Positions 11,287 through 44,250 of a stretch of 64,000 nucleotides of DNA are shown here, in pieces; the first letter of the stretch is position 1; each line of letters starts with the position of its first letter. The stretch covers positions 79,856,001 through 79,920,000 of the forward strand of contig NC_042997.1 in NCBI RefSeq assembly GCF_006345805.1, read 5' to 3'. The notes under the pieces are model-generated. The model had not been told where the DNA came from. It worked only from the letters and a program-made list of their open reading frames with translations, and searched no databases. Origin of the DNA: Octopus sinensis. Lineage: Eukaryota. The position numbers and the translations under genes are program-made.

Positions 11287-12063
11287 TATGTGCATGTGTG
11301 TGTGTATAACATGAAGAATTCTGATAGGAATGATTGTGTATGCAACAAATACATTCTCACAATATTGAACAACTCTTAGGTAATCCACAAGTTACTCATA
11401 CCAATATTGGAGCCACTTCATGGTAGCTCTATCTGCTATAAGTATCAGGCACACCATTTTCAAATTACACCATTTTGTCTTAAAAAATAAAGAATGGCAC
11501 ATTTGATATATGATGTCTGCAATAACAATAATAATCCTTTCTAATTTAGACACCATAATAATAATGATTTCAATTTTTGACACAAGGCCAGCAATTTTGG
11601 GGGAGAGGATAAGTCAATTACATTTCCCACAGCCAGGGCCAGCTTTAGAAGGTGCAGGGCCCGATTGGGAGCAATTTTGGTGGGCCTCAGGTTTCCAGTG
11701 AACTTGCACCAAGGTCTATAGAATCATAAGAATCCAGCCATTGAAACTATGCTACCATGCAGTGCCACATAAAAGCACTCAGTCCACGCTGTAAAGTGGT
11801 GGTGTTAGGAAGGACATCCAGCCGTTAAAATCATGCTCCCATGCTGTTCCACATAAAAATACTCAGTCCACACAGTAAAGTGATAACGTTAGGAAGAGCA
11901 TCCAGCCACAAAAAAACACGCCAAACCAGGCGGGTGCCAGATGTAGCTCCTAGTTTGTTGGCCCCTGTCAAACCGTCCAACCCATGCCAGCATGGAAAAT
12001 GGATGTTAAATAATGATGATGATGATGATATGCATATATATACATACACATATTATGTGTATA

Positions 12064-12822
12064 GGATCTTTTCCTTTTGAACGGCACTTTGTAACATAAT
12101 CTCTAGGTAACTAAATAGTTTTAAACTTCATATACTGGTAGAATGTATTTATAAAACGTCATTTTCTCTTGGCTTTATTGAGAAAATTCTATAGTTTGTA
12201 AGATATTTCGTCTGAAATTTCGAGCATTTCGGTAATTTTAACCAATCGATTACCTCCATTTAGGTAAATAACATTCTGTGCATAATGAATATGTACCTCG
12301 TTTAAGAAACCCCTAACCCTAACTAACCCTAAATCTAAAATAGATTGAAATGCAATAGATCGATACTAGGGCCAGAATTATGGGTGACATTTTCATTTGA
12401 CACCACTAGAAAAAAATCCCATTTTCCGTAGCGGTGTCGTATGAAATTGTCACCCATAATTATAACCCCAGTATCGATCTATTGCATTTCAATCTATTTT
12501 AGATTTAGGGTGAGTTAGGGTTAGAGTTAGGGGAAGGGTATCTTTTTTCTTCACAAATGTAAATAAACCCAATCTGTTTCTTAAACGAGGGACATATTCA
12601 TACAGCACGGAATGTTGTTTACGTCAATGGAGGTAATCGATTGGTTAAAATTGCCGAAATGCTCGAAATTTCAGACGAAATATCTTACAAACTATAGAAT
12701 TTTCTCAATAAAGCCAAGAGAAAATGATGTTTTATAAACACATTCTACCAGTATACGAAGTTTAAAACTTTTTAGTTACCTAGAAATTATGTTACAAGGT
12801 GCCGTTCAAAAGGAAAAGATCC
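12064..12822. mobile_element. Foldback MITE, Merlin-like (GG...CC ends, 8-bp TSD TGTGTATA)
   Basis: Ends are ggatcttttccttttgaacggcac / gtgccgttcaaaaggaaaagatcc, with about 350-bp imperfect inverted arms. The identical 8-mer tgtgtata lies at 12056-12063 and 12823-12830. Confidence 0.85.
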
Positions 12823-13021
12823 TGTGTATATATATATATTTGGTTTGCAAGATTCTTTATGTGAGTTTGTGTGTTGAAGCATATTCTGTTGTGTCTGGGG
12901 AGAGTAATTTTCTTTTTGTGTCTTATAATTTAACACACTCACCAGTAAAATTTCCACTTATTTCACTCCTTGAGTAGCCGAAGCACCAGTTTGACAGGAA
13001 TATCTATCCTAAGATGTGTAA

Positions 13022-15781: not shown

Positions 15782-16554
15782 GAATCTTTTCCTTTTGAAC
15801 GGCAGACAATTTCTAGTTAACTAAACACTTTAAAACTTCGTATACTGGTAGAATGTGTCAAAATAAAACATTTTTTTCTCTTGGCTTTCTTGAGAGAATT
15901 GTAATTTGTTTGTTTAACATAGTTTAATTTTTCGAATTTTAACCAATCCTATGCTCTCTTTTGAGCTAAAATCATTTGCTGCGTCTAAAACTGAGACAAC
16001 TACCCCTCAACCTAACCCTAACCCTAATTTTTTTTCTTAATTGTTAAATTAATTTAATTGTTACGCGTGTAAAAAAACCCGAAAGCAATGAAAAATGATT
16101 TAAACAATCAACAAACAAAATAATTCTATAATTTTATACACACGCTTTCCGTATACGTACGGAAAGCGTGTGTATAAAATTATAGAATTATTTTTTTGTT
16201 AATTGTTTAAATCATTTTTCATTGCTTTCGGGTTTTTTTACACGCGTAACAATTAAATTAATTTAACAATTAAGAAAAAAAAATTAGGGTTGGGGGAGGT
16301 TTAGGGTTAGTTACAGGATGTTGTCTCAGTTTTAGACGCAGCAAATGATTTTAGTTGAATGGAGGTAATCGATTGGTTAAAATTGCCGAAATGCTCGGAT
16401 TTTCAGACGAAATATCTTACAAAGTATAGAATTTTCTCAATAAAGCCAAGAAAAAATGATGTTTTATAAACACATTCTACCAGTATACGAAGTTTAAAAG
16501 TGTTTAGTTAACTAGAAATTGTGTTGACATCTGCCGTTCAAAAGGAAAAGATCC
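15782..16554. mobile_element. Second Merlin-like foldback MITE (related subfamily)
   Basis: Same TIR (gaatcttttccttttgaacggcag / ctgccgttcaaaaggaaaagatcc) and a palindromic centre near 16155 (cacgctttccgta..tacggaaagcgtg). It has CCCTAA/TTAGGG blocks; the TSD is not clean. Confidence 0.8.
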
Positions 16555-18567
16555 GTCGTATGTAAGATTAAATTCAGAAAAAATCCTCATGCCGATTGCG
16601 ACAGTAACTTTGAATATTTAAACATTAGGTACAGAGTATAACTGGAAATATTCAATAGCATCCTTAGAAAAATTCTTTGTTACAATTTTTCCTGCACTGG
16701 CTTTCAACCCATCTGTCAATTCTAATGCATTAATGCTCGCTGTATTCTGAAACGGAAGCTAGTTTCCGAGCACCTTGCATGGTTCAAACGTGGTTGAATT
16801 TAACAATATCATACATAGAGTATTTTCTTTTCGGTATGTGCGTAAGAGACTGAGTGTTTTAGTTTTAAGAGTTTGAAATTTCACTATACCTAGAATTCTG
16901 TTGCATTCCTTCCGAATCAGACGAATTTTCAGGAAAATGCAGGTTACACTGGGAAAAAATTTTTTTCAGAATAAGGCGAACGTTCCACAAGTAAGCGATT
17001 TGACTAGCTGAAAACAGCCAATAAAAAACAAAAGTCTTGTACTTTTTTTGTCGGAGTTACGCTCATGCAGCCGGTTAAGCTAACAGAAAATATTCTGCAT
17101 CAAAATCTAATATGACATGACCGAGAAATATTTTTTAAAAAAAGAGTGCATTAAAATCAAAGTTGTTTTAGCAACTGAACCAAAGTACAGTAATTGCTTG
17201 TATGCGAATCGTTCATATGTGTATGAGTGTGTATCTGTGTGTTTGTGTGTGTGTGTGAAAGAGAGAGAGAGAGAAATAGCTATACCATGCAATATACATC
17301 CTTGATTTATTAAATTATTTCCGTCACAATTACCAATGGCAATAATGACCCGCTCTATATGAGGAGGAGAAATAATCACTTGAATGATGACTGAAATTGA
17401 CATGCTATTAAGGAAAAGGACACTTATTGCCTGGAGATGACATTAAGAGTTTCTGCCTCAATAGGTCTCATAGGCACGACAATTGTCGAACCTTATCACC
17501 AGTTGCCAAGGGACTTAGGCATATACAAAAAGTGTATTGCACGTTATGCTCTACGTAATTAGCATATATATGTGATAAGGTTCGACAATTGTCGTGCCTA
17601 TGAGACCTATTGAGGCAGAAACTCTTAATGTCATCTCCAGGCAATAAGTGTCCTTTTCCTTAATAGCATGTCAATTTCAGTCATCATTCAAGTGATTATT
17701 TCTCCTCCTCATATAGAGCGGGTCATTATTGCCATTGGTAATTGTGACGGAAATAATTTAATAAATCAAGGATGTATATTGCATGGTATAGCTATTTCTC
17801 TCTCTCTCTCTTTCACACACACACACAAACACACAGATACACACTCATACACATATGAACGATTCGCATACAAGCAATTACTGTACTTTGGTTCAGTTGC
17901 TAAAACAACTTTGATTTTAATGCACTCTTTTTTTAAAAAATATTTCTCGGTCATGTCATATTAGATTTTGATGCAGAATATTTTCTGTTAGCTTAACCGG
18001 CTGCATGAGCGTAACTCCGACAAAAAAGTACAAGACTTTTGTTTTTTATTGGCTGTTTTCAGCTAGTCAAATCGCTTACTTGTGGAACGTTCGCCTTATT
18101 CTGAAAAAAATTTTTTCCCAGTGTAACCTGCATTTTCCTGAAAATTCGTCTGATTCGGAAGGAATGCAACAGAATTCTAGGTATAGTGAAATTTCAAACT
18201 CTTAAAACTAAAACACTCAGTCTCTTACGCACATACCGAAAAGAAAATACTCTATGTATGATATTGTTAAATTCAACCACGTTTGAACCATGCAAGGTGC
18301 TCGGAAACTAGCTTCCGTTTCAGAATACAGCGAGCATTAATGCATTAGAATTGACAGATGGGTTGAAAGCCAGTGCAGGAAAAATTGTAACAAAGAATTT
18401 TTCTAAGGATGCTATTGAATATTTCCAGTTATACTCTGTACCTAATGTTTAAATATTCAAAGTTACTGTCGCAATCGGCATGAGGATTTTTTCTGAATTT
18501 AATCTTACATACGACGGATCTTTTCCTTTTGAACGGCAGATGTCAACACAATTTCTAGTTAACTAAA
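16503..18567. repeat. Near-perfect ~1 kb inverted repeat (arms 16503-17499 and 17572-18567, 72-bp spacer)
   Basis: Mirror-identical ORFs 17107-17403(-) and 17668-17964(+). By eye the arms differ only by a 1-bp homopolymer indel (T7 at ~17043 vs A6 at ~18022). Confidence 0.95.
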
Positions 18568-18939: not shown

Positions 18940-19035
18940 CCTTCTATAAAATAAATAAATAAATAAATATACATATATATATATATATACAGGAATAAAA
19001 AATGGAGTTAACGCAGGTTTAAACAAGTATTTTTT

Positions 19036-19120
19036 CTTTCTACATATGTTTCAAAAATTCCACTGATACTTATTCAAAAGAATAAAAGGTATAAACAATG
19101 CAATCTTCTCTTCGGGAAAG
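19036..19120 (-). ncRNA. Hammerhead ribozyme of the PLE (inverted copy)
   Basis: Reverse complement of 23738-23822. Confidence 0.7.
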
Positions 19121-20874
19121 GGAAAAAACGAAACTTGTCAATACGACATTTTAGCAAAAAATGATGGATTCGTATAGCGATAGACAGAACGCTATTAATA
19201 TTGTTTAAAAAAACGTTATATGATATAACGTCATAAGTAGCTAACAGAAAGAGTAGGGATATTAATAGTGAATGTTAAATATAAAGGAAATTAAAGTCTA
19301 AACTATATATAATGATAGAGACTACTTATATGCACTAAAAGTATGTTTTTGCCAATGCTTACATCTGTATGCTCGTTCTATAACCGTGTTTACTAGAGTA
19401 TTTTTAGAAAAAATAATGAAAAATAGCTCAGAATTGCAGAGAAGACAGAATTTCTTGCCTTTGTCATATGGTATCGAAATTGAGAGGATCAACCATTCCA
19501 AATGAAATTGTTCATTGTGGTCTTTTAAATTCCAAATCAGTTTGCTGAGACCGGTACTATTCCGTTTATTTCTATCCCTAAATGTTGAGTAATGGATAGA
19601 AATTCTCTTAGATAACTCTAACGATGTGCTTCCAATGTAAAATTGTACTTTATTACGAGTACTGATTATACACTGGTATATAGAATTTTTAATCTTAGAG
19701 TTACTTGACATAAATTTAATTCTATTGGGATTGACTTCAGATACAATAACCTTGTTATTAATATTTCTAGAGGGTTGGATGGTAGTAGCTAAATTAATGT
19801 TAGTATTAGTAAATGTATTAATATTTAACAGTTTTTTAAGCCATTCTACTGAAAAAATTAACTAAACTGTTCTTAACTTTTTGTACCTTTTGGTTAGAAA
19901 CATTTTGGAGGTAAAGTAAACAATCATCACGATATAGACCTCCATAAATGTTAGGGAACTCTTCAGCCATTTCAAAAAGAATATATATACAGACCAAATC
20001 AGCTATCTGTGCTGAATCAGAACTTCCCATAGGTATATCGAAACTATCTGGTGTGTCTTTACGGACCCACAACTTATCATCAAATTTAATAATAGATCTT
20101 CTGGCTGCCAACACAACATTAATTTCTTCTCGGGTGAGACCAGCTTTGTTATGAGCAAGCCAAAGTGCCTTATTAAGTACTATTGGATTAATAGACGAAT
20201 AAAAATTGGAAATATCAAACTGGATAAACTTCGTACTCACCTTACTGTTAATAGACCTAAACCAGTCAACTACGTCAAATGAATTAGTCCATAAACTAAG
20301 TTTTAATGTTTTGATTAGATTAGGAATATATTTATCTAGTATATTTTTACTAAGGATACCGATGTCAGAGCTAAGAGAATTATCTAAGAGAATTTCTATC
20401 CATTACTCAACATTTAGGGATAGAAATAAACGGAATAGTACCGGTCTCAGCAAACTGATTTGGAATTTAAAAGACCACAATGAACAATTTCATTTGGAAT
20501 GGTTGATTCTCTCAATTTCGATACCATATGACAAAGGCAAGAAATTCTGTCTTCTCTGCAATTCTGAGCTATTTTTCATTATTTTTTCTAAAAATACTCT
20601 AGTAAACACGGTTATAGAACGAGCATACAGATGTAAGCATTGGCAAAAACATACTTTTAGTGCATATAAGTAGTCTCTATCATTATATATAGTTTAGACT
20701 TTAATTTCCTTTATATTTAACATTCACTATTAATATCCCTACTCTTTCTGTTAGCTACTTATGACGTTATATCATATAACGTTTTTTTAAACAATATTAA
20801 TAGCGTTCTGTCTATTGCTATACGAATCCATCATTTTTTGCTAAAATGTCGTATTGACAAGTTTCGTTTTTTCC

Positions 20875-20959
20875 CTTTCCCGAAGAGAAGATTGCATTGT
20901 TTATACCTTTTATTCTTTTGAATAAGTATCAGTGGAATTTTTGAAACATATGTAGAAAG
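20875..20959 (+). ncRNA. Hammerhead ribozyme of the PLE (5' pseudo-LTR copy)
   Basis: Identical to 23738-23822; lies 250 nt upstream of the ORF ATG. Confidence 0.7.
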
Positions 20960-21134
20960 AAAAAATACTTGTTTAAACCTGCGTTAACTCCATTTTTTAT
21001 TCCTATTATTCAAATATTCAACGTAAACACGAAGTTTCAACCTTTATAAACAAGGAGTTACAACATCTTTACTTGTGAGATTTTTGCTGTCCTGGTAACT
21101 ATTCATTCATTTATCCGTGTTAAATGTTAACAAG

Positions 21135-21205
21135 GTAAAATACACTCATCTATTTATAATACTTTAATCAGGTTTATTAATAACCTGCTAACTGAATAGT
21201 TACAG
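21135..21205 (+). other. Candidate 71-nt spliceosomal intron in the PLE 5' leader
   Basis: AAG|GTAAAA donor, TGCTAAC branch site at 21186-21192, and TTACAG| acceptor 3 nt before ATG 21209. Confidence 0.5.
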
Positions 21206-21208
21206 CAT

Positions 21209-23536
21209 ATGGAGTTATTGAATATTAACGCATCTCTTAAGGACATTCCTATTCCACCTAAGAATGTTTTCCTTAAACAACTTGTCAATAAGATTAATTC
21301 ATTCATCAACCGAATAAGATGGCTTACCTTTTTCTTTGACAAAAATGACACTCAACAACACACTAATGATAAAACATCTGAGTTCAGCAAGTTATTTAAA
21401 TCTAAAAATAGTCCGCCGCCTAACCCAAGGTTGAAGCAATTTGAAGATGATCTCTGGTCCATTGTGAGAAATGTAAAATTTCAACGGTCACCACTAAGAA
21501 ATAAACATCTGAGGTATCTTCGCAACATCACCAAAGAAATCAATTCTATGGATACTATGTTGGTTCAATCTGATAAGACTGGAAATCTGTACAAACTTTA
21601 TAAAGACTATTATTTGGAATTACTTGAAAAAGAAATTCAGAAAAAGTATAAAATTGCTGATAAAAGAATACTTAAGAAAGCCAACATCGAGGCTATGAAA
21701 ATCATGGAGAAATATAACCTACAAATGAAGACAGAACCACTTGTTCCTAAACAACCTAGGTTTATTTTGAAGGATCACAAACCAAATTTTTTTACTAACC
21801 CATCATTAAGGCTTATCTGCCCTTCTAGCTCTGACATCGGTATCCTTAGTAAAAATATACTAGATAAATATATTCCTAATCTAATCAAAACATTAAAACT
21901 TAGTTTATGGACTAATTCATTTGACGTAGTTGACTGGTTTAGGTCTATTAACAGTAAGGTGAGTACGAAGTTTATCCAGTTTGATATTTCCAATTTTTAT
22001 TCGTCTATTAATCCAATAGTACTTAATAAGGCACTTTGGCTTGCTCATAACAAAGCTGGTCTCACCCGAGAAGAAATTAATGTTGTGTTGGCAGCCAGAA
22101 GATCTATTATTAAATTTGATGATAAGTTGTGGGTCCGTAAAGACACACCAGATAGTTTCGATATACCTATGGGAAGTTCTGATTCAGCACAGATAGCTGA
22201 TTTGGTCTGTATATATATTCTTTTTGAAATGGCTGAAGAGTTCCCTAACATTTATGGAGGTCTATATCGTGATGATTGTTTACTTTACCTCCAAAATGTT
22301 TCTAACCAAAAGGTACAAAAAGTTAAGAACAGTTTAGTTAATTTTTTCAGTAGAATGGGCTTAAAAATCGTTTTTGATGACGATCTGACGAAGGCCAACT
22401 TTTTAGATATTACGCTTAATTTACACAGTGATTCTTACTTCCCATATCATAAACCGTTGACCAATCTTAAGTACATTAGCAAATTTAGTAATCATCCTGG
22501 AGCAATTACTAAGAATTTAGTTAAGAATATTTCATTTAGATTATCTAAATTATCTGCTAATGTTGATATTTTCAATAATAACGCTGAATTCTATAACTCT
22601 GCCTTAATCAAAGCAGGTTATACAGAAAAAATTTTCTACATTGATTCTGCTCAGTCTAATTGTAAATTCAATAATGTAGATAAGATTTCTAGTCGTAAAA
22701 GAATTATTGATAACAAACATAACTTACGCACCGATACAAAGCGAATGAAGGCAGATAACCCTTATTTATTCCCCTATTACCGATCTAAAAGTAAATATAA
22801 CACCTTCAAAAGTAATTACGCTATGAATACTAGTAAAAATATTTGGTTAATAATTCCTTACGGGAGACAAATTAAATCTAATCTCCCACTGCTGTTTCGT
22901 CAAGCTATTGCTAGGAATTTTCCAAATAATTCTAGATATTACTCTATAATTAATTCACATAAAGTTAGGATAGGTTTTTCAAACACAAAAAATCTCTTGC
23001 AAATTATATCTTCTCATAATAACAAACTGTTAAATATTAATACATTTACTAATACTAACATTAATTTAGCTACTACCATCCAACCATCTAGAAATATTAA
23101 TAACAAGGTTATTGTATCTGAAGTCAATCCCAATAGAATTAAATTTATGTCAAGTAACTCTAAGATTAAAAATTCTATATACCAGTGTATAATCAGTACT
23201 CGTAATAAAGTACAATTTTACATTGGAAGCACATCGTTAGAGTTATCTAAGAGAATTTCTATCCATTACTCAACATTTAGGGATAGAAATAAACGGAATA
23301 GTACCGGTCTCAGCAAACTGATTTGGAATTTAAAAGACCACAATGAACAATTTCATTTGGAATGGTTGATCCTCTCAATTTCGATACCATATGACAAAGG
23401 CAAGAAATTCTGTCTTCTCTGCAATTCTGAGCTATTTTTCATTATTTTTTCTAAAAATACTCTAGTAAACACGGTTATAGAACGAGCATACAGATGTAAG
23501 CATTGGCAAAAACATACTTTTAGTGCATATAAGTAG
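21209..23536 (+). CDS. PLE polyprotein, 775 aa: reverse transcriptase + C-terminal GIY-YIG endonuclease (probably Hydra clade)
   Basis: Uninterrupted ORF with N-terminal SLKDIPIP...FINRIRW. RT motifs: FDISNFYSSI (A), MGSSDSAQIADL (B'), GLYRDDCL (C), NFLDITLNL (E), SNHP. EN: SIY...FYIGST...KRISIH...LSKLIWNLK...CLLCNSE...RCKH. Confidence 0.95.
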   Translation: MELLNINASLKDIPIPPKNVFLKQLVNKINSFINRIRWLTFFFDKNDTQQHTNDKTSEFSKLFKSKNSPPPNPRLKQFEDDLWSIVRNVKFQRSPLRNKHLRYLRNITKEINSMDTMLVQSDKTGNLYKLYKDYYLELLEKEIQKKYKIADKRILKKANIEAMKIMEKYNLQMKTEPLVPKQPRFILKDHKPNFFTNPSLRLICPSSSDIGILSKNILDKYIPNLIKTLKLSLWTNSFDVVDWFRSINSKVSTKFIQFDISNFYSSINPIVLNKALWLAHNKAGLTREEINVVLAARRSIIKFDDKLWVRKDTPDSFDIPMGSSDSAQIADLVCIYILFEMAEEFPNIYGGLYRDDCLLYLQNVSNQKVQKVKNSLVNFFSRMGLKIVFDDDLTKANFLDITLNLHSDSYFPYHKPLTNLKYISKFSNHPGAITKNLVKNISFRLSKLSANVDIFNNNAEFYNSALIKAGYTEKIFYIDSAQSNCKFNNVDKISSRKRIIDNKHNLRTDTKRMKADNPYLFPYYRSKSKYNTFKSNYAMNTSKNIWLIIPYGRQIKSNLPLLFRQAIARNFPNNSRYYSIINSHKVRIGFSNTKNLLQIISSHNNKLLNINTFTNTNINLATTIQPSRNINNKVIVSEVNPNRIKFMSSNSKIKNSIYQCIISTRNKVQFYIGSTSLELSKRISIHYSTFRDRNKRNSTGLSKLIWNLKDHNEQFHLEWLILSISIPYDKGKKFCLLCNSELFFIIFSKNTLVNTVIERAYRCKHWQKHTFSAYK

Positions 23537-23737
23537 TCTCTATCATTATATATAGTTTAGACTTTAATTTCCTTTATATTTAACATTCACTATTAATATC
23601 CCTACTCTTTCTGTTAGCTACTTATGACGTTATATCATATAACGTTTTTTTAAACAATATTAATAGCGTTCTGTCTATCGCTATACGAATCCATCATTTT
23701 TTGCTAAAATGTCGTATTGACAAGTTTCGTTTTTTCC

Positions 23738-23822
23738 CTTTCCCGAAGAGAAGATTGCATTGTTTATACCTTTTATTCTTTTGAATAAGTATCAGTGGAA
23801 TTTTTGAAACATATGTAGAAAG
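23738..23822 (+). ncRNA. Hammerhead ribozyme of the PLE (3' pseudo-LTR copy), CCGAAGA core
   Basis: ctttc-CCGAAGA-[56-nt extended stem II]-GAAA-CATATG-TA-gaaag, with perfect stem I and palindromic stem III ACATATGT. Confidence 0.7.
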
Positions 23823-24010
23823 AAAAAATACTTGTTTAAACCTGCGTTAACTCCATTTTTTATTCCTATTATTCAAATATTCAACGTAAACACGAAGTTT
23901 CAACCTTTATAAACAAGGAGTTACAACATCTTTACTTGTGAGATTTTTGCTGTCCTGGTAACTATTCATTCATTTATCCGTGTTAAATGTTAACAAGGTA
24001 AAATACACTC

Positions 24011-24049
<39 letters not shown>

Positions 24050-24677: not shown

Positions 24678-27600
24678 TTTCTTTTTCCTTCTGGCCGTTT
24701 GATCTCAAGTGGCTGCCTGCTTGTGGCCATGACTCTAGTTGTCCGTTCACTAACTTCTTTTATTCGGCACACAGGCCATGACACAAAGGGAACAGCACAT
24801 TGCTCGTGACCTCGCTCCAGTTTTTCTCCATCTGGAGATCTGGTCCAAACCAGACCACAAGCAATTTAACCGGGCCCTCCGTCCAACGACGCTGTTGGGA
24901 GGCATCGCCTTCCCGATTCCAGGTGCCGAGTTGCAAGCCGACTGATTTTTCCTGGTTAATTTTTGCTCCTGCTACCGCTTCGTATCCTTTGATGGCGTCT
25001 TATACACGAGGTAGCTGCTTTCATCAGACACGATGATGGTGACATCATCCCAATATACAGCCGCTCTCCTACCGTAACATAGATCAGGCGGGTCACCCCC
25101 ACCCCGTGTACTCCAACCTCCGCAGCAATGGCTCAAGAGCCAAAACATACAGAAGAGGGGACAGGGGGAAGCCCTGGTGAACTGAACGTTCGCTCGCGAA
25201 CAGCCTCGAGAAGAAACTGTTTATCCGGCCGATTGAATCGATGTCGCTATACATAGCATTGATCCATCCACGGAAAGTCGGGCCCAGTCCGACCGCCGCC
25301 AGATACCGATGGTTAACTCTATCGAATGCTTTAGACTGGTCTAAATTCACCAGTGCCCCACCTTTGCCAGAAATTTTACCCACCCGCTCTATAGTGTAGC
25401 GTATGAGGTGAAGGTTGTCGTGTATTGTCCTGCCTGGAATGGCACATGTCTGTGCCTCTCTCACCAGGACGCCCACGACAAGCCTCACTCTCTTGGCTAA
25501 CACCTTGGCCAAAATCTTTAACTCTGTTTAGCAGAATTATGGGCCTAAAGTTATTAGTGTTATTCCCCTTGTTCGGGTCCTTCCTGATCAGTGTCACTAC
25601 TCCCCGACTCACAGATTTGGGAATTCTCCTGTTCTGCTGCCGGTTTACGTATACACCGGCCAGTATGTTCCCGAACAATTCGTAAGGAAGACCATTCAAT
25701 CCCGGCGACTTGTCCCCGGGGCAGTCGGAAAGCACTTCTATGACCTCCACAGCTGTGATCATCCCTTCATAGCGCTCCGCCTCGCGTGCCGAGAGACATG
25801 GGCCGTCGGCCAGAAAATCCCGAAGGGCATCCCCATGGTCCAGCGTCCCGCTCCTCCCGAACAACGCAGTGAAATGCTCCTGAAAGGCCTTCTTGTCCGT
25901 CGATCTCCTGTCCTTGTTCATTTACCACAGACCTCATCGTAGCATCTACGCCACGTTGAGTTTCTACAGAGCGAGCCCACCCGGTAACGTTGATACCTTC
26001 GCGACCCAATGCACGTACTTCAGCCCGGACCCTGCAACTTTCGTGTTTGGAATTGAGGTGTCGGTCGAAGGCCGATCTCGCCGCCAAAACTTGAGGTGCA
26101 GAGCCCACTCTCAACGCCTCTTCTAACGCCTTAACTAGAGACTCTTCTACTCTAGCCTGCACTATACTTAACTGTTTGCTAAATCTAATAGACTCAAGTC
26201 GAATAGCTCTTTTGAGGCTACCCCACCACCGGTTATTCAACACGGTACCAGTGAGTGCCCTCATGACTAATTCCTTAATCTGGTTACGGTATGTTTCGCA
26301 AGCCAAAAGGGTCTTGTTCAACTTCTAGTAACCAGATCCCTGTCTATGGACTCGGATTCTCGAGTCTGAATCGATCTGCCAGCCTATATCACTTCAGCAG
26401 ATCGATGAGGCGTGAGTTACTTTTCCTATCGGTCGGGCCAACGCTTTCCAGGCGTGCATCCAGAACAGCGTTAAAGTCTCCTAACATTACTATCGTCCTT
26501 GGCGTCACAAGAAAATCCTCCAGGCATCGATAGAACTCATTCCGTTTGCCCTTTGTGCAAGGCGCGTAAATACCTACCAACCTGAAGGTCTTACCACTGA
26601 AAGTCAGATCCAGAATGACCGAATCACCTTCTGGGTCGACAAAGACTGCGAGTGTCTGTAGAGCCAAGCCTTTTCGGATCAAAACCTCAACGCCACTCCC
26701 TCCCCCTGTCCAACTAGGAGATATGATTTTCTCATAGTCTTTCAGGAGGTTTTTGAGAAGGCCTGCAGCTTGTCCAACTTGGTCTCTGTAGCAACCATAT
26801 CAATTTTAAGTGACCTGAGGTCGTCGAGGAAACAGGCTTGCTTCCACTTCGAACTCAGGCCACGCACATTTAGACAACCTACACGTAGCGTAGCCATGAC
26901 AAAAACAGGAACAGAAGGAAATCTACTTACATTTTAGCCTAGGGGAAATCATCCTCAGCACTGGTGCGGCTAGGATTTTCCCCTTTATTTCTTCCATGGG
27001 CGGTTTTTCCGGTAGGTCGAACACTTTTGGTAAGTCTTTTAGCTCGATAATTTCTTTAGGAAATCTGTTCTTCAAGTCCTTGTAAAGTACTTTAGGGATC
27101 GTCGCAATGCTGTTCGGATTTTTACTGTTACTCGTTAGGTATATTTTGCTTTGTAAATGGGGTTTAATTACCCCCGTCATTGAGTTTACCACTGTGGTCA
27201 TTTCTTTTTTGGGCTTGGGTTTGTATATTTTTATCGATATAAATGTTTTCTCTTTGTGTTTTTTTTTTCCTTCCGGGTTATTTTTTTTTCTTTCTTTGGT
27301 TTTCGGAGCCGCCTCTTAAGTAGGCGACTCCACTGCTTTTTTTTATTTTTCGCGACACTGTCTCGAAGTCCATTCCTTCTGCTGACGGTGTCACTTCGAC
27401 TGGTTTTACGATTTGTTCTGATTCAGTGGCTGCCCTCTGCATAACAGCCTCCGTGACTGAGGGCACCTCCTCTTCTACATTTTCTTCTTGTTCCTTCTCC
27501 TGTGCTTGTTCCTTCTGCTGTGCTTTTTCCTGTTGGGGGCAATTCGACCTCAGGTGCCCCATTTTTCTGCATTTGAAGCACCTGGGCTTCCTCCCCTCTA

Positions 27601-37809: not shown

Positions 37810-38500
37810 TACAGGGTGTGGTGAATAAACGGTTGTCTAAATTATGCAAAAATGAAAATAACACTGACGTTTCATTTTAACAGATATATTTTCCAAAATT
37901 ACATTAGAATATCTTGAAATACTATAGAGTAAATTTATTCAATAAAATCACCATTAGCTTCAACCACAGCCTTCAGATGACTTCAAAATCTGCAATTCTT
38001 CTGGACAGTCTCCTTGTTTAAGTTGGTGAATGCTGCCATAATTTTTGCCTTCAGTCATCTTCGGTGTTACAAGGAGTTGCTCAACTGCACCCCACACATA
38101 ATAATCAAGGCGGTTGCAGTCTGGGGAGTTAGGTGACCAGATGTTAGGGGTGATGTGGTCAGAGAATTTGTCTGACAGCCATGACTGGGTTCTTCTGCTT
38201 GCGTGGCATGGTCTGTTGCCAGACATAAGTTCTTCCAGCAGCCACCCTCTTGACCCAGGGCAGCACTACCTCCTCCAGGTACTTGATATAGGCCTCCGTG
38301 TTGAGTCTGAGGTCAAGTGGGAAGATGAATGGAGGCATAATGTCGCCATCACTAGTGACCATACCAAACACCATGAAGTTGACTAAATGTTTTGATTTTT
38401 ATCACTCTCAGTACATGTCCTCAGATTAACACCCAAAGACTCTGAAATGTTCATATTAGAGCTTCCAGTGTGAATGCCAAGCAGTACAGCATGTTGTCAT
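37810..38500 (-). mobile_element. Tc1/mariner DD37D (maT-type) 3' part
   Basis: MVFGMVTSDGDIMPPFIF...YLEEVVLPW...YVWQQ and PCHASRRTQSWL...WSPNSPDCNRLDYYVWG; TA-cagggtgt terminus near 37810. Confidence 0.85.
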
Positions 38501-38503
38501 ACA

Positions 38504-39710
38504 TGCACATCCTGCAGAGCTTGCTAACTTCATTTCTTTCTAGTTTTTGCATATAATCTGCATTTGTGGCCCATGTTTCGCTATCCTGTAGTAGTGTTGT
38601 TCATACACATATATCATACAATTTTCCTTTTTCTTTAAGAGAGGCCTTTTGTTTACCAACAGAGGTAATAGTGCTCTGAAGTATTGCTATTTTCAGAACA
38701 TCTTCCTCCACTGCTAATTAGATCACCTAGGTAACAAACTGTCTGAGCATTCAAGAAAATCTATTATCCATGTGTTCTTAATGTTTATTTCTCCTGTGCA
38801 TCTGCTACAAAGTCTGTTAGTCTTTCAATGATTCTACTGCATTCTTGTATCCATAATTTTTATTAGCAATACCATTTGGAATTACTGTCCACACCTTTTT
38901 TTTACATGTCAAACAGAGCTATTTTCCTACTTACTAGGACTTTGATCTCTTCTAAGTTAACTTCAAGAACCTTTGATTCTATGTTTTGCTTCCACACCTG
39001 AAATTTCTTTTCTTATTTTGCTAACAAGGTCGTTAACATAAAGGAGTTCTCACAGACAGCTTGTCTTAAGCTCCTCTGTTATAGCCAAGAGAAAAATGAT
39101 AAATTGGATGGGTTTGAGAGCTGAGCCCCATTGAACTCCTACCTGCACACTAAATTTGTCACTTTATTTATTATTAACTTTCACCTTACTGATAGCATCC
39201 CTGTATATGTCTTGGATGGCTCTTAGTCTACTCCCAGCTTCAGTAGCAATCCCCAAATCAAAGAGCCAGGGGCCCTGTTAAAGACTTTATCCAGGTCAGT
39301 GACAGCTAAATACTTCTCCTGCAATTGCTTAACTAGGAAGAGAGCATCTGTGGTACTCCTTCCTCATTCAAATATAAAGCAAAACTGCATTTTATCTTGT
39401 CTAACCATCTTCCTAATTAGTTGTGATATAATTTTTTCTGTAATTTTTAAGACCTGGCATAACAGTTTTATACATCTATAATTACTTCTCTCTAAGACAT
39501 CTCCTTTTCTCTTATATCAATTGACTGTAGTGCTGCTATACCAGTCATTAGGCATATCTTTCTGTACAACCTGATCAACTATACAGGTAACTAGATCATA
39601 TCCAACTCTGCCAGATATTTTAAGCATCTAATTGGTAATTCCTGATGGACCAGCTGCTTTCTCTTACTTTATGACTTTTGTTGCATTATTTGTCATACTA
39701 TTATCAATTT
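38504..39710 (-). mobile_element. RTE-clade LINE RT remnant
   Basis: Minus-strand fragments KAAGPSGIT and CYLGDLISSGG...KGKLYDICV..LLQDSETWA...KLERNE. Confidence 0.75.
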
Positions 39711-42702: not shown

Positions 42703-44250
42703 TATTAGGTCGTCAAGTAAAAAATTTGTAGAAAAGAAAATAAAGTTTGCTAATGTTTTATAAATACAAGGAATAGTTGCACATCCTGCAGAGCCTGCTA
42801 ACTTCATTTCTTTCTAGTTTTTGCATATAATCTGCATTTGTGGCCCATGTTTCGCTATCCTGTAGTAGTGTTGTTCATACACATATATCATACAATTTTC
42901 CTTTTTCTTTGAGAGAGGCCTTTTGTTTACCAACAGAGGTAATAGTGCTCTGAAGTATTGCTATTTTCAGAACATCTTCCTCCACTGCTAATTAGATCAC
43001 CTAGGTAACAAACTGTCTGAGCATTCCTCATATGCTTACCTCATATTCCTTTTTACAGTGTTTATGAATGAGGCAATGTGATTGAGTTATCTTTGCTTAA
43101 AGGGTTTTTGAGTCAAGGTATGCACCCATATCGTCAATACACTTTTGCCATTTCAGAGGCTGCTTGTCCAGCCCGGAACTGTAAAAGCCTGGTAATCTAG
43201 AGTCAATAAAATCTTGGAAGGCCTGTTTTACAGCATCATCAGAATTAAATTTTTTTCCTATCAATAAGTTATCCAAATTTTGGAAGTGGTGGTCAGTGGA
43301 TGCAAGATATATGAGTATGGTGGATGATGGAAAACTTCCAACTTCAACTCCTGTAGTTTCACCAGTGTCATTTTTGCGATGTGTGGTCTGGCATTGTCTT
43401 GCAGTAAAATAGGAGTGAATCTGGTGACTAATCTAGGCTGGTTTTTTTTGTAAGTTTCTGCATCATTTGCTCCATTTGGCTGCAGTATACTTCAGCTGTG
43501 ATTGATGAGCCAGGTTTAATGAAATCATAATGGATCACATCTGTGCCAGACCACCAAACACACACCATCAGTTTCTTTTGATGAATTTTGCTTTTTGGAC
43601 TGTGTTTTGGTGGCTTGTCTTTGTCCAGCCATTGTGCTGAACATTTACGGTTGTTGTATTGGATTCATTTTTCATCACGTTACTTTTTGATTAAAAAATT
43701 ATCTATTTTTGTGACCAGAAAGTAGCATAATGCAGGCTTCCAAACATTGTTGTTTCTGATATTCATTGAGTTCATGTAGAACCCACTTATCCAACTTTTT
43801 CACTTCACCAATTTGAACTAGGTGGGTCAGTATTGTTTGTTTGCTAACAACAACGATAATTCACAGGCACTTTGAGATGGATCTGACTCGATGGTGGCTT
43901 TCAGTTTGTCATCATTCACCTCTGTTTCTGGTTGACCGTGTTACTCATTTGTGAAGTCAAAGTTACCAGAACAAAATTTTGCAAACCAATTTGATATTGT
44001 CTGCTGTGTAATACCAATGGAATGAAATACTTCATTAATATTCCGAGCTGTTTCTGATGCTGTATTTCCAAGAACTGAACAAATTTCCGACTTATCCATC
44101 TCTAAACAAAAATAGAAAAAGGTGATTTAGCACTACTTTATAAAGTGCAAAATGAGTTAAAGAAAAGAAATAGATGTATCAGCTTTCTAACAAAAAATAA
44201 AGATTGTCAAAATATAATAATGGCGCAAAAATGTCAAAGTTTACCATACA
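42703..44250 (-). mobile_element. Mariner (DD34D, Hsmar-like) element, decayed, with a templated insertion at 42778-43116
   Basis: ATG at 44099: MDKSEI...ASETARNINEVF...TISNWFAKFCSGNFDFTNE, then QDNARPH, HPPYS and LKWQKCIDDMGAY; TA-ttaggtcg TIR at ~42703. Confidence 0.85.

What the first reader, a model, noticed from the sequence alone, without database searches (positions are those of the whole stretch)
20875..23822. Non-canonical PLE hammerhead (CCGAAGA core, 56-nt stem II) flanking a 2863-nt unit
Seen: identical HHRs lie 2863 bp apart, with a third inverted copy. U4 of CUGANGA is C. Stem II is extended (gaagatt/aattttt, cattg/cagtg, atac/gtat, ttattc/gaataa around a UUUU loop), and stem III is the palindrome ACATATGT. 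Inference: dimeric cleavage after GUA (20954 and 23817) would release a unit-length 2863-nt RNA holding the whole ORF, possibly circularisable. The U4C change could be family-specific tuning or a loss of function.
Basis: partly seen in the sequence, partly recalled or inferred. Interest (0 to 1): 0.7.

Follow-up and report, generated by a model that had tools for sequence, protein, structure and literature searches.

The report
Weakening hammerhead in active Penelope retrotransposon
This is a young, intact jumping gene (Penelope-like retrotransposon) whose self-cutting RNA motif lost a conserved core letter partway through the family's history and likely cuts only weakly now, yet the family kept spreading, so its old and new versions would allow a direct test of whether such elements need their ribozyme.

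Summary
In detail: three identical type I hammerhead motifs (CCGAAGA core, 56-nt helix II, ACAUAUGU helix III), two of them 2863 bp apart. They sit in the terminal repeats of an intact Hydra-type Penelope-like element (775-aa ORF) inserted in (TA)n. C4 is not fixed: exact patterns give 452 C4 and 383 U4 copies, and a sister family has 440 U4 against 9 C4. U4 is ancestral. C4 marks one younger branch that went on amplifying through further core changes (C17A, C11.1U) while its ORF stayed under purifying selection (dN/dS 0.14). No insertion arm ends at the predicted cut (0 of 119). Arms end 52 or 204 nt downstream, so the copied RNA is uncut or re-ligated, not a linear 2863-nt unit. A second, unrelated motif family in this genome also carries C4 (1087 vs 108). 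Best reading: a likely attenuated ribozyme that does not set insertion ends. Cleavage and circles are untested. PLE hammerheads, dimer cleavage, the circle model and a viroid U4C variant are published; the scan noted this reading before on other DNA of this genome (e1-10346284). New variant of a known kind.

The parts
18991..20373 (-). Inverted, 5'-truncated arm of the same element, internally deleted (copies 21826-22367 joined to 23020-23867); ends at the 'short' 3' end, next to (TA)n
19034..19122 (-). Third hammerhead copy, identical to the other two; C4 at 19114
20376..21158 (+). Upstream pseudo-LTR (partial tandem unit; starts inside the endonuclease coding end); 3 differences from the downstream copy in 783 nt, none in the hammerhead
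20875..20959 (+). Upstream hammerhead: helix I 20875-79/20955-59, core CCGAAGA 20880-86 (C4 = 20881), helix II 20887-20942, GAA 20943-45, helix III ACATATGT 20946-53, predicted cut after 20954
21209..23536 (+). Intact 775-aa ORF, RT plus C-terminal GIY-YIG-type endonuclease with Hydra-clade motifs (RWL37, DKT122, YRDD353, IYQC657/YIG671, CLLC735, CKH763); CxCX5C linker absent
   Evidence: motif list from PMC8557442 section 11
23239..24021 (+). Downstream pseudo-LTR including the tail; ends at (TA)n
23738..23822 (+). Downstream hammerhead; derived positions versus older copies: 23744 (U4C), 23805 (C11.1U), 23813 (perfects the palindrome), 23817 (C17A), 23737 and 23823 (sixth helix I pair lost), 23771 and 23787 (upper helix II)
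23870..24021 (+). 152-nt tail between the two recurrent insertion ends (about 23869 and 24021), inferred to be the two reverse-transcription start sites
   Evidence: PMC11167929

Best explanation
This is an intact, very recently inserted Hydra-type Penelope-like retrotransposon whose terminal-repeat hammerhead carries a derived U4C core change and is likely a weak, partner- or protein-dependent cutter that does not set the ends of new insertions. Shown: the ancestral motif was canonical (CUGANGA, G10.1-C11.1, GUC); U4C, then C17A, then C11.1U became fixed in successive source elements, each of which left copies; and insertion arms end 52 or 204 nt past the cut site. Inferred: the RT starts internally at those two sites on an uncut longer-than-unit transcript and inserts a long and a short arm back to back into nicked (TA)n; the hammerhead cuts only a minority of transcripts, so mutations that weaken it without destroying it are tolerated.
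For: Polarity: the sister family (about 70% aa identity) has U4 in 440 and C4 in 9 exact matches; all 26 Hydra rows of File S2 in PMC8557442 start ctga. With the core sites masked, 30 of 31 C4 arms form one branch (96/94) holding only 3 U4 arms; one of these is the twin arm of a C4 arm in the same insertion (L043), as expected from later CpG decay. U4 copies are not mere CpG decay: 115 versus 7 for the G5A control. The oldest group (U4/A7) has 3.5-3.7% private divergence, the youngest (C4/U11.1/A17) 0.9%, and the latter's 3' half has 227 exact matches. ORF dN/dS along the trunk is 0.14 (33/336 synonymous, 19/1341 non-synonymous); the hammerhead region changed at the synonymous rate (8/89 vs 9.8%), whereas between family and sister the core did not change (0 of 16 sites, N7 excluded, vs 25 of 72 outside). 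Ends: 0 of 119 arms at the cut; 36 of 37 two-armed loci pair a long with a short end. Literature: U4C lowers in vitro activity considerably but leaves a viroid infectious (PMC3088659 passage); single mutants in the CUGA turn have low activity (PMC9901934 passage); hammerhead mutants do not affect insertion by the anole PLE in vitro, and its hammerhead needs the protein (PMC11167929). Not dead: all 3 core changes fall on tolerant positions and none on the 10 strict ones (P about 0.05, post hoc); A17 occurs in 12 of 26 and G.U at 10.1-11.1 in published Hydra rows; a second motif family has C4 in 1087 vs U4 in 108 matches.
Against: No cleavage was measured and no run on record as RNA was available. 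Insertion ends cannot tell an uncut precursor from a re-ligated circle. The excess of change in the hammerhead over other non-coding parts is not significant (8/89 vs 19/396, P 0.13), and zero hits on strict sites is compatible with neutrality (P 0.36). Folding predictions run against simple weakening: the active fold is more accessible in C4 groups (1.6-3.0 vs 4.6-6.1 kcal/mol above the ensemble with 25-40 nt flanks; U4C alone about 0.8), the dimer helix improved from -6 to -7 kcal/mol, and helix II gained a pair. The middle age classes are not separated by divergence (1.6-2.1%); their order rests on the tree, and one C4 arm (L076) falls outside the C4 branch.
Confidence: 0.55

Rival explanations
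1. The C4 hammerhead is fully functional in vivo and required: paired motifs cut the transcript at 20954 and 23817, a ligase closes the 2863-nt unit into a circle, and the RT copies the circle from the two internal start sites, sometimes beyond one lap. U4C and the later changes are tuning that trades chemistry for better folding.
For: Longer-than-unit arms cross the upstream cut site in this window (to 20376), L077, L055 and sister L112, as a circle allows. Changes avoid strict sites, the palindrome became perfect and the predicted competing hairpin that pairs U4 was relieved. C4 dominates a second family. The model was proposed in PMC4209133, and circles are shown for metazoan retrozymes (PMC7229834 passages).
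Against: Read-through of a tandem source gives the same arms. The region evolves at the synonymous rate and the youngest subgroup lost a helix I pair. PLE minimal hammerheads cut poorly even as dimers (PMC4209133), and unprocessed RNA was the dominant substrate in vitro, with no reads at the cut site (PMC11167929).
Confidence: 0.22
2. U4C killed the ribozyme and everything after it is neutral drift of a dispensable passenger.
For: Rate equals the synonymous rate; three core changes in a short time after long stasis; CUGA-turn mutants have low activity; hammerhead-less PLE clades are reported to proliferate (PMC8557442 passages).
Against: None of the 10 strict sites changed in any later source element; the same position is the one changed in an unrelated family and in a viable viroid; helices II and III were kept or improved.
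Confidence: 0.18
3. The 56-nt helix II has become a protein-binding or RT-positioning element, and selection now acts on the hairpin, not on catalysis.
For: The long hairpin is kept in family and sister, mostly through one-sided pair-preserving changes (86% of cells paired vs 31-47% for slid controls); it lies 64 nt upstream of the short end.
Against: Covariation is not above the shuffle control (1 pair with a two-sided change; 449 of 500 shuffles as high); the middle of the hairpin is not shared with the sister; in the anole PLE the binding region lies downstream of the hammerhead.
Confidence: 0.05

Closest known systems
Hydra-clade Penelope-like elements and their hammerheads, including Hydra-1_Obim (Craig et al. 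2021, PMC8557442; seen: passages, section 11, supplement part 2 with Files S1/S2, supplement searches)
   Same: Unit under 3 kb, single RT plus C-terminal endonuclease ORF, DKT, RW, CxxC and CxH motifs, (TA)n target, type I hammerhead near the 3' end with palindromic helix III.
   Different: C4 core (0 of 26 listed Hydra rows); helix II plus loop 56 nt against at most 24 nt in those rows; CxCX5C linker absent; RWL instead of RWK. The hammerhead differs from that of Hydra-1_oBim, and two motifs of this family were not found in the supplement text.
Minimal and palindromic PLE hammerheads (Cervera and De la Pena 2014, PMC4209133; parts 1-2 of 4 read, supplements not seen)
   Same: Motifs in both pLTRs about 3 kb apart, nearby inverted copies, short helix I, longer-than-usual helix II, dimer requirement, proposed cut-and-circularise model.
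   Different: Their helix II is 6-8 bp and G10.1-C11.1 is highly conserved; the core variant they report in the text is U3-A8, not C4.
Natural U4C hammerhead of a viroid (Ambros and Flores 1998, paper not held; known here only from the passage in PMC3088659)
   Same: Same core substitution, reported as much less active in vitro yet viable in vivo.
   Different: Viroid context with obligatory cleavage; here a genomic retrotransposon with datable U4 ancestors beside C4 descendants.
PAc Poseidon element of Anolis (Frangieh et al. 2024, PMC11167929; parts 1-2 of 4 read)
   Same: Two insertion ends downstream of the hammerhead that define a tail; AT-rich targets.
   Different: Different clade; there the start sites lie inside the ORF about 30-40 nt apart by the tail definition, here in the untranslated part 152 nt apart; its core is canonical at position 4 as far as the text shows.
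PLE-X1 hammerheads of Selaginella (File S2 of PMC8557442)
   Same: Long helix II region (53 nt in PLE-X1_sMoe), flagged as deviating.
   Different: Plant, endonuclease-less, rDNA-targeted elements with ctga cores.

Membership tests
Penelope-like element (EN+) | Single ORF with RT and C-terminal GIY-YIG endonuclease | tested here: met
   Motifs and alignment to 12 full-length homologues; Pfam and PDB searches gave no match, so the assignment rests on motifs and the Hydra alignments seen
Penelope-like element (EN+) | Partial-tandem pLTRs, inverted truncated arm, optional tail | tested here: met
Hydra clade | DKT motif; RWK motif | tested here: met
   DKT122 present; RWL37 (RW kept, third residue L; homologues have K or R)
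Hydra clade | CxxC and CxH around the endonuclease E and N residues | tested here: met
   CLLC735, CKH763
Hydra clade | CxCX5C linker | tested here: not met
   Absent here, in 25 of 25 family arms translated and in the sister; present in 12 of 12 aligned and 42 of 51 homologues. Filed as Hydra-type with a lost linker, not as a typical member
Hydra clade | Insertion into (TA)n | tested here: met
   TA-rich next 14 nt at 64 of 66 short and 46 of 49 long ends
Hydra clade | Placement in the clade on an RT tree with named references | not tested
Type I hammerhead ribozyme | Strict core C3, G5, A6, G8, A9, G12-A14, A15.1-U16.1, H17 and three helices | tested here: met
   helix III has 2 bp as a monomer and 8 bp (-7 kcal/mol) as a dimer
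Type I hammerhead ribozyme | U4 and G10.1-C11.1 | tested here: not met
   C4 and G.U in this copy; both canonical in older copies and the sister
Type I hammerhead ribozyme | Self-cleavage after H17 | not testable with these tools
   Needs an in vitro assay or raw RNA reads
Non-LTR retrozyme | Non-coding 150-1000 nt tandem unit | tested here: not met
   The unit is 2863 nt and encodes an intact ORF

The most novel reading that the evidence does not exclude
U4C is a recurrent dimmer mutation of retroelement hammerheads: Penelope-like elements are selected to turn their ribozyme down, not off, because the RT needs RNA that is intact across the cut site. This genome would hold at least two independent fixations, and in this family a dated series of natural alleles from canonical to triple-variant, each transposition-competent.
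Probability: 0.25. Interest if true: 0.65.

Novelty: new variant of a known kind. Interest (0 to 1): 0.4.

Why it matters
Why PLEs carry hammerheads is an open question: processing into circles was proposed in 2014, an in vitro study found the ribozyme dispensable for insertion, and one paper suggests hammerheads may simply parasitise PLEs. This family offers an intact young ORF and a natural allelic series in which the core changed three times while transposition went on, so activity can be measured per allele and set against copy output. Practical point: CUGANGA descriptors with short helix II, and Rfam, miss this motif.

Tried and rejected
Rfam: no match. Pfam on the ORF and on 13 aligned proteins: none. 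PDB sequence search: nothing meaningful. Protein atlas: no result for this sequence. Sequencing runs: no RNA holder listed; 7 of 19 listed runs were laid, all contigs, which cannot show ends, strand or level, so they are no evidence on expression or cleavage. 'U4 copies are CpG decay of C4' rejected (115 vs 7). My first count (442 C4 to 115 U4) was misleading because the pattern fixed N7 = A; a 3'-half pattern (660 matches) exposed a U4/G7 group (28 of 46 arms; 268 matches). 'GUA and G.U are signs of decay' weakened, since both occur in published Hydra hammerheads. Covariation as proof of the long helix: not above shuffle. First pattern for the second C4 family was at chance level (15 vs 23 control) and a DNA search was swamped by TA repeats; no ORF was found beside that family in the loci fetched. 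Lunse et al. 2017 and Ambros and Flores 1998 are not held; the former, and the unseen supplements of PMC4209133, may already list C4 PLE variants. Paper searches for U4C, for CCGANGA-type strings and for hammerhead loss in PLE subfamilies showed no report of C4 in a PLE; only listings were seen.

Full report
Observation. The three motifs are identical over 89 nt, and the predicted cuts at 20954 and 23817 are 2863 nt apart. A relaxed descriptor finds only these three sites, and none in 20 shuffled windows. Rfam finds nothing. The motif also has G10.1.U11.1 and a 5-bp helix I.

The element. From left to right: (TA)n; an inverted, internally deleted arm (18991-20373); a partial upstream repeat (20376-21158); a 775-aa ORF (21209-23536); the downstream repeat to 24021; (TA)n. 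The two repeats differ at 3 of 783 sites, so the insertion is very young. The protein has 51 unnamed homologues, 27-40% identical in their best local alignment. It carries the motifs that PMC8557442 section 11 lists for the Hydra clade (DKT, RW, CxxC, CxH) but lacks the CxCX5C linker found in 42 of 51 homologues. The sister family lacks it too, yet both ends are TA-rich in 110 of 115 cases. The host is a 2.7-Gb animal genome; earlier scan notes call it octopus, which I did not test.

Is C4 fixed? No. Exact 20-nt patterns give C4/A7 442 (557 minus 115), U4/A7 115, U4/G7 268 and C4/G7 10; these are arms, not insertions, and miss decayed copies. The G5A control gives 7, so U4 copies are not CpG decay. 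A sister family, about 70% identical in protein, has CUGAUGA, G-C and GUC with its own long helix II: 440 U4 against 9 C4. All 26 Hydra rows in File S2 of PMC8557442 begin ctga. U4 is therefore ancestral.

History. I read 80 loci chosen from the first pattern (40 U4, 40 C4; 78 aligned) and 40 from the 3'-half pattern. In a tree of 62 arms long enough to use, with five diagnostic sites masked, 30 of 31 C4 arms form one branch (96/94) that also holds 3 U4 arms, likely reversions; L076 lies outside (the sister did not align over this stretch, so rooting rests on its character states and on ages). Inside the branch the order is U4C, C17A with perfection of the palindrome, C11.1U, then loss of the sixth helix I pair in the subgroup of this copy. 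Private divergence is 3.5-3.7% for U4/A7 and 0.9% for the youngest group; the middle groups (1.6-2.1%, U4/G7 1.7% with a selection bias downward) are not separated. Along this trunk the ORF shows dN/dS 0.14, so the source elements were functional. The hammerhead region changed at 8 of 89 sites, like synonymous sites (9.8%) and more than other non-coding parts (19 of 396; P 0.13). Between family and sister, by contrast, 0 of 16 core sites differ against 25 of 72 others: the core was long constrained and then began to move.

What the insertions say about cutting. Of 119 arms, 66 end at 23855-23890, 49 at 24000-24021, 4 elsewhere and none at 23805-23830; 1 starts at 23810-23825. Of 37 two-armed loci, 36 pair a long with a short end. 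This is the published PLE tail, which PMC11167929 traces to two internal RT start sites. On a linear cut unit those sites would lie 52 and 204 nt from the 5' end and yield only stubs ending at the cut, which do not pile up. The template is thus uncut or circular. Arms longer than a unit cross the upstream cut site in both U4 and C4 lineages (this copy, L077, L055), which fits both.

Weak, tuned or dead? For weak: U4C considerably lowers activity in vitro in a viroid that stays infectious (PMC3088659 passage), CUGA-turn mutants are low in a deep scan (PMC9901934 passage), and PLE motifs cut poorly even when canonical (PMC4209133). Against dead: no strict site changed, all three core changes hit tolerant sites (P about 0.05, post hoc), and A17 and G.U occur in published Hydra motifs. 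Following earlier scan notes, I confirmed a second motif family with a 3-bp helix II and GGAA loop and no similarity to this one at the motif: 1087 C4, 108 U4, 59 G5A; I did not link it to an ORF. For tuning: in U4 copies a predicted hairpin pairs position 4 (P about 0.7 with longer flanks) and the active fold is 4.6-6.1 kcal/mol above the ensemble, against 1.6-3.0 in C4 groups; the swap alone is worth about 0.8. These are monomer predictions. The long helix II is kept mostly by one-sided changes, with covariation not above shuffle; a 53-nt precedent exists in Selaginella.

Verdict. The best-supported mechanism is a standard Hydra-type PLE cycle on uncut RNA with a weakened, probably still leaky hammerhead (0.55); required cutting plus circle 0.22; dead 0.18; hairpin repurposed 0.05. 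The components are known. What is new relative to the papers I could see is a C4 core fixed in an active PLE lineage beside its U4 ancestors. I reached this reading before seeing scan note e1-10346284, which says the same of what is probably this family; that is not independent support. Interest 0.4.

Noticed in passing
window 23107-23170 (about aa 634-654 of the ORF); sister loci L121, L136, L139: The CxCX5C zinc-finger linker proposed to go with (TA)n targeting is absent in this family and its sister, yet insertions are still in (TA)n. This argues that the linker is not needed for that targeting.
   Followed up: partly
L112, L116, L111-L140 (own genome): Sister Hydra-type family, about 70% aa identity, canonical CUGAUGA hammerhead with a different long helix II and the same spacing of about 335 nt from motif to start codon; 440 exact U4 matches.
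   Followed up: yes
L220-L237 (own genome): Second, unrelated short-helix hammerhead family with CCGACGA core in (TA)n fold-backs: 1087 C4 vs 108 U4 and 59 G5A matches; parent ORF not found in the loci fetched.
   Followed up: partly
window 21136-21172: GT...AG stretch of 37 nt upstream of the ORF that spans the long end (21158); could be a 5'-UTR intron as in other PLEs. No splice joint was seen in the contigs laid.
   Followed up: no
run X4 laid on window 23699-23822: In one run of another organism label (RNA status only guessed, contigs only), very deep contigs cover just the hammerhead part, carry U4 and C11.1, and stop near 23822; an inverted joint 23699/23875 appears in X6. Probably one truncated U4 insertion in an abundant sequence; contig depth is no measure of expression. 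C4-type contigs occur in the same organism label (X4 record 9, X6 record 19).
   Followed up: partly
window 16503-18567: Near-perfect fold-back of about 1 kb per arm (100% complementary, 72-nt spacer), no hammerhead by my descriptor; may be a very recent inverted duplication or an assembly feature. Another 257-nt inverted pair lies at 12054-12832.
   Followed up: no
window 25093-26321 (-): Broken reverse transcriptase ORFs (RVT_1, E 4e-12 at 25096-25512), likely a LINE fragment unrelated to the PLE.
   Followed up: partly
window 38499-38752 and 42773-43026: 254-nt direct repeat, 98% identical, 4274 nt apart; nature not examined.
   Followed up: no
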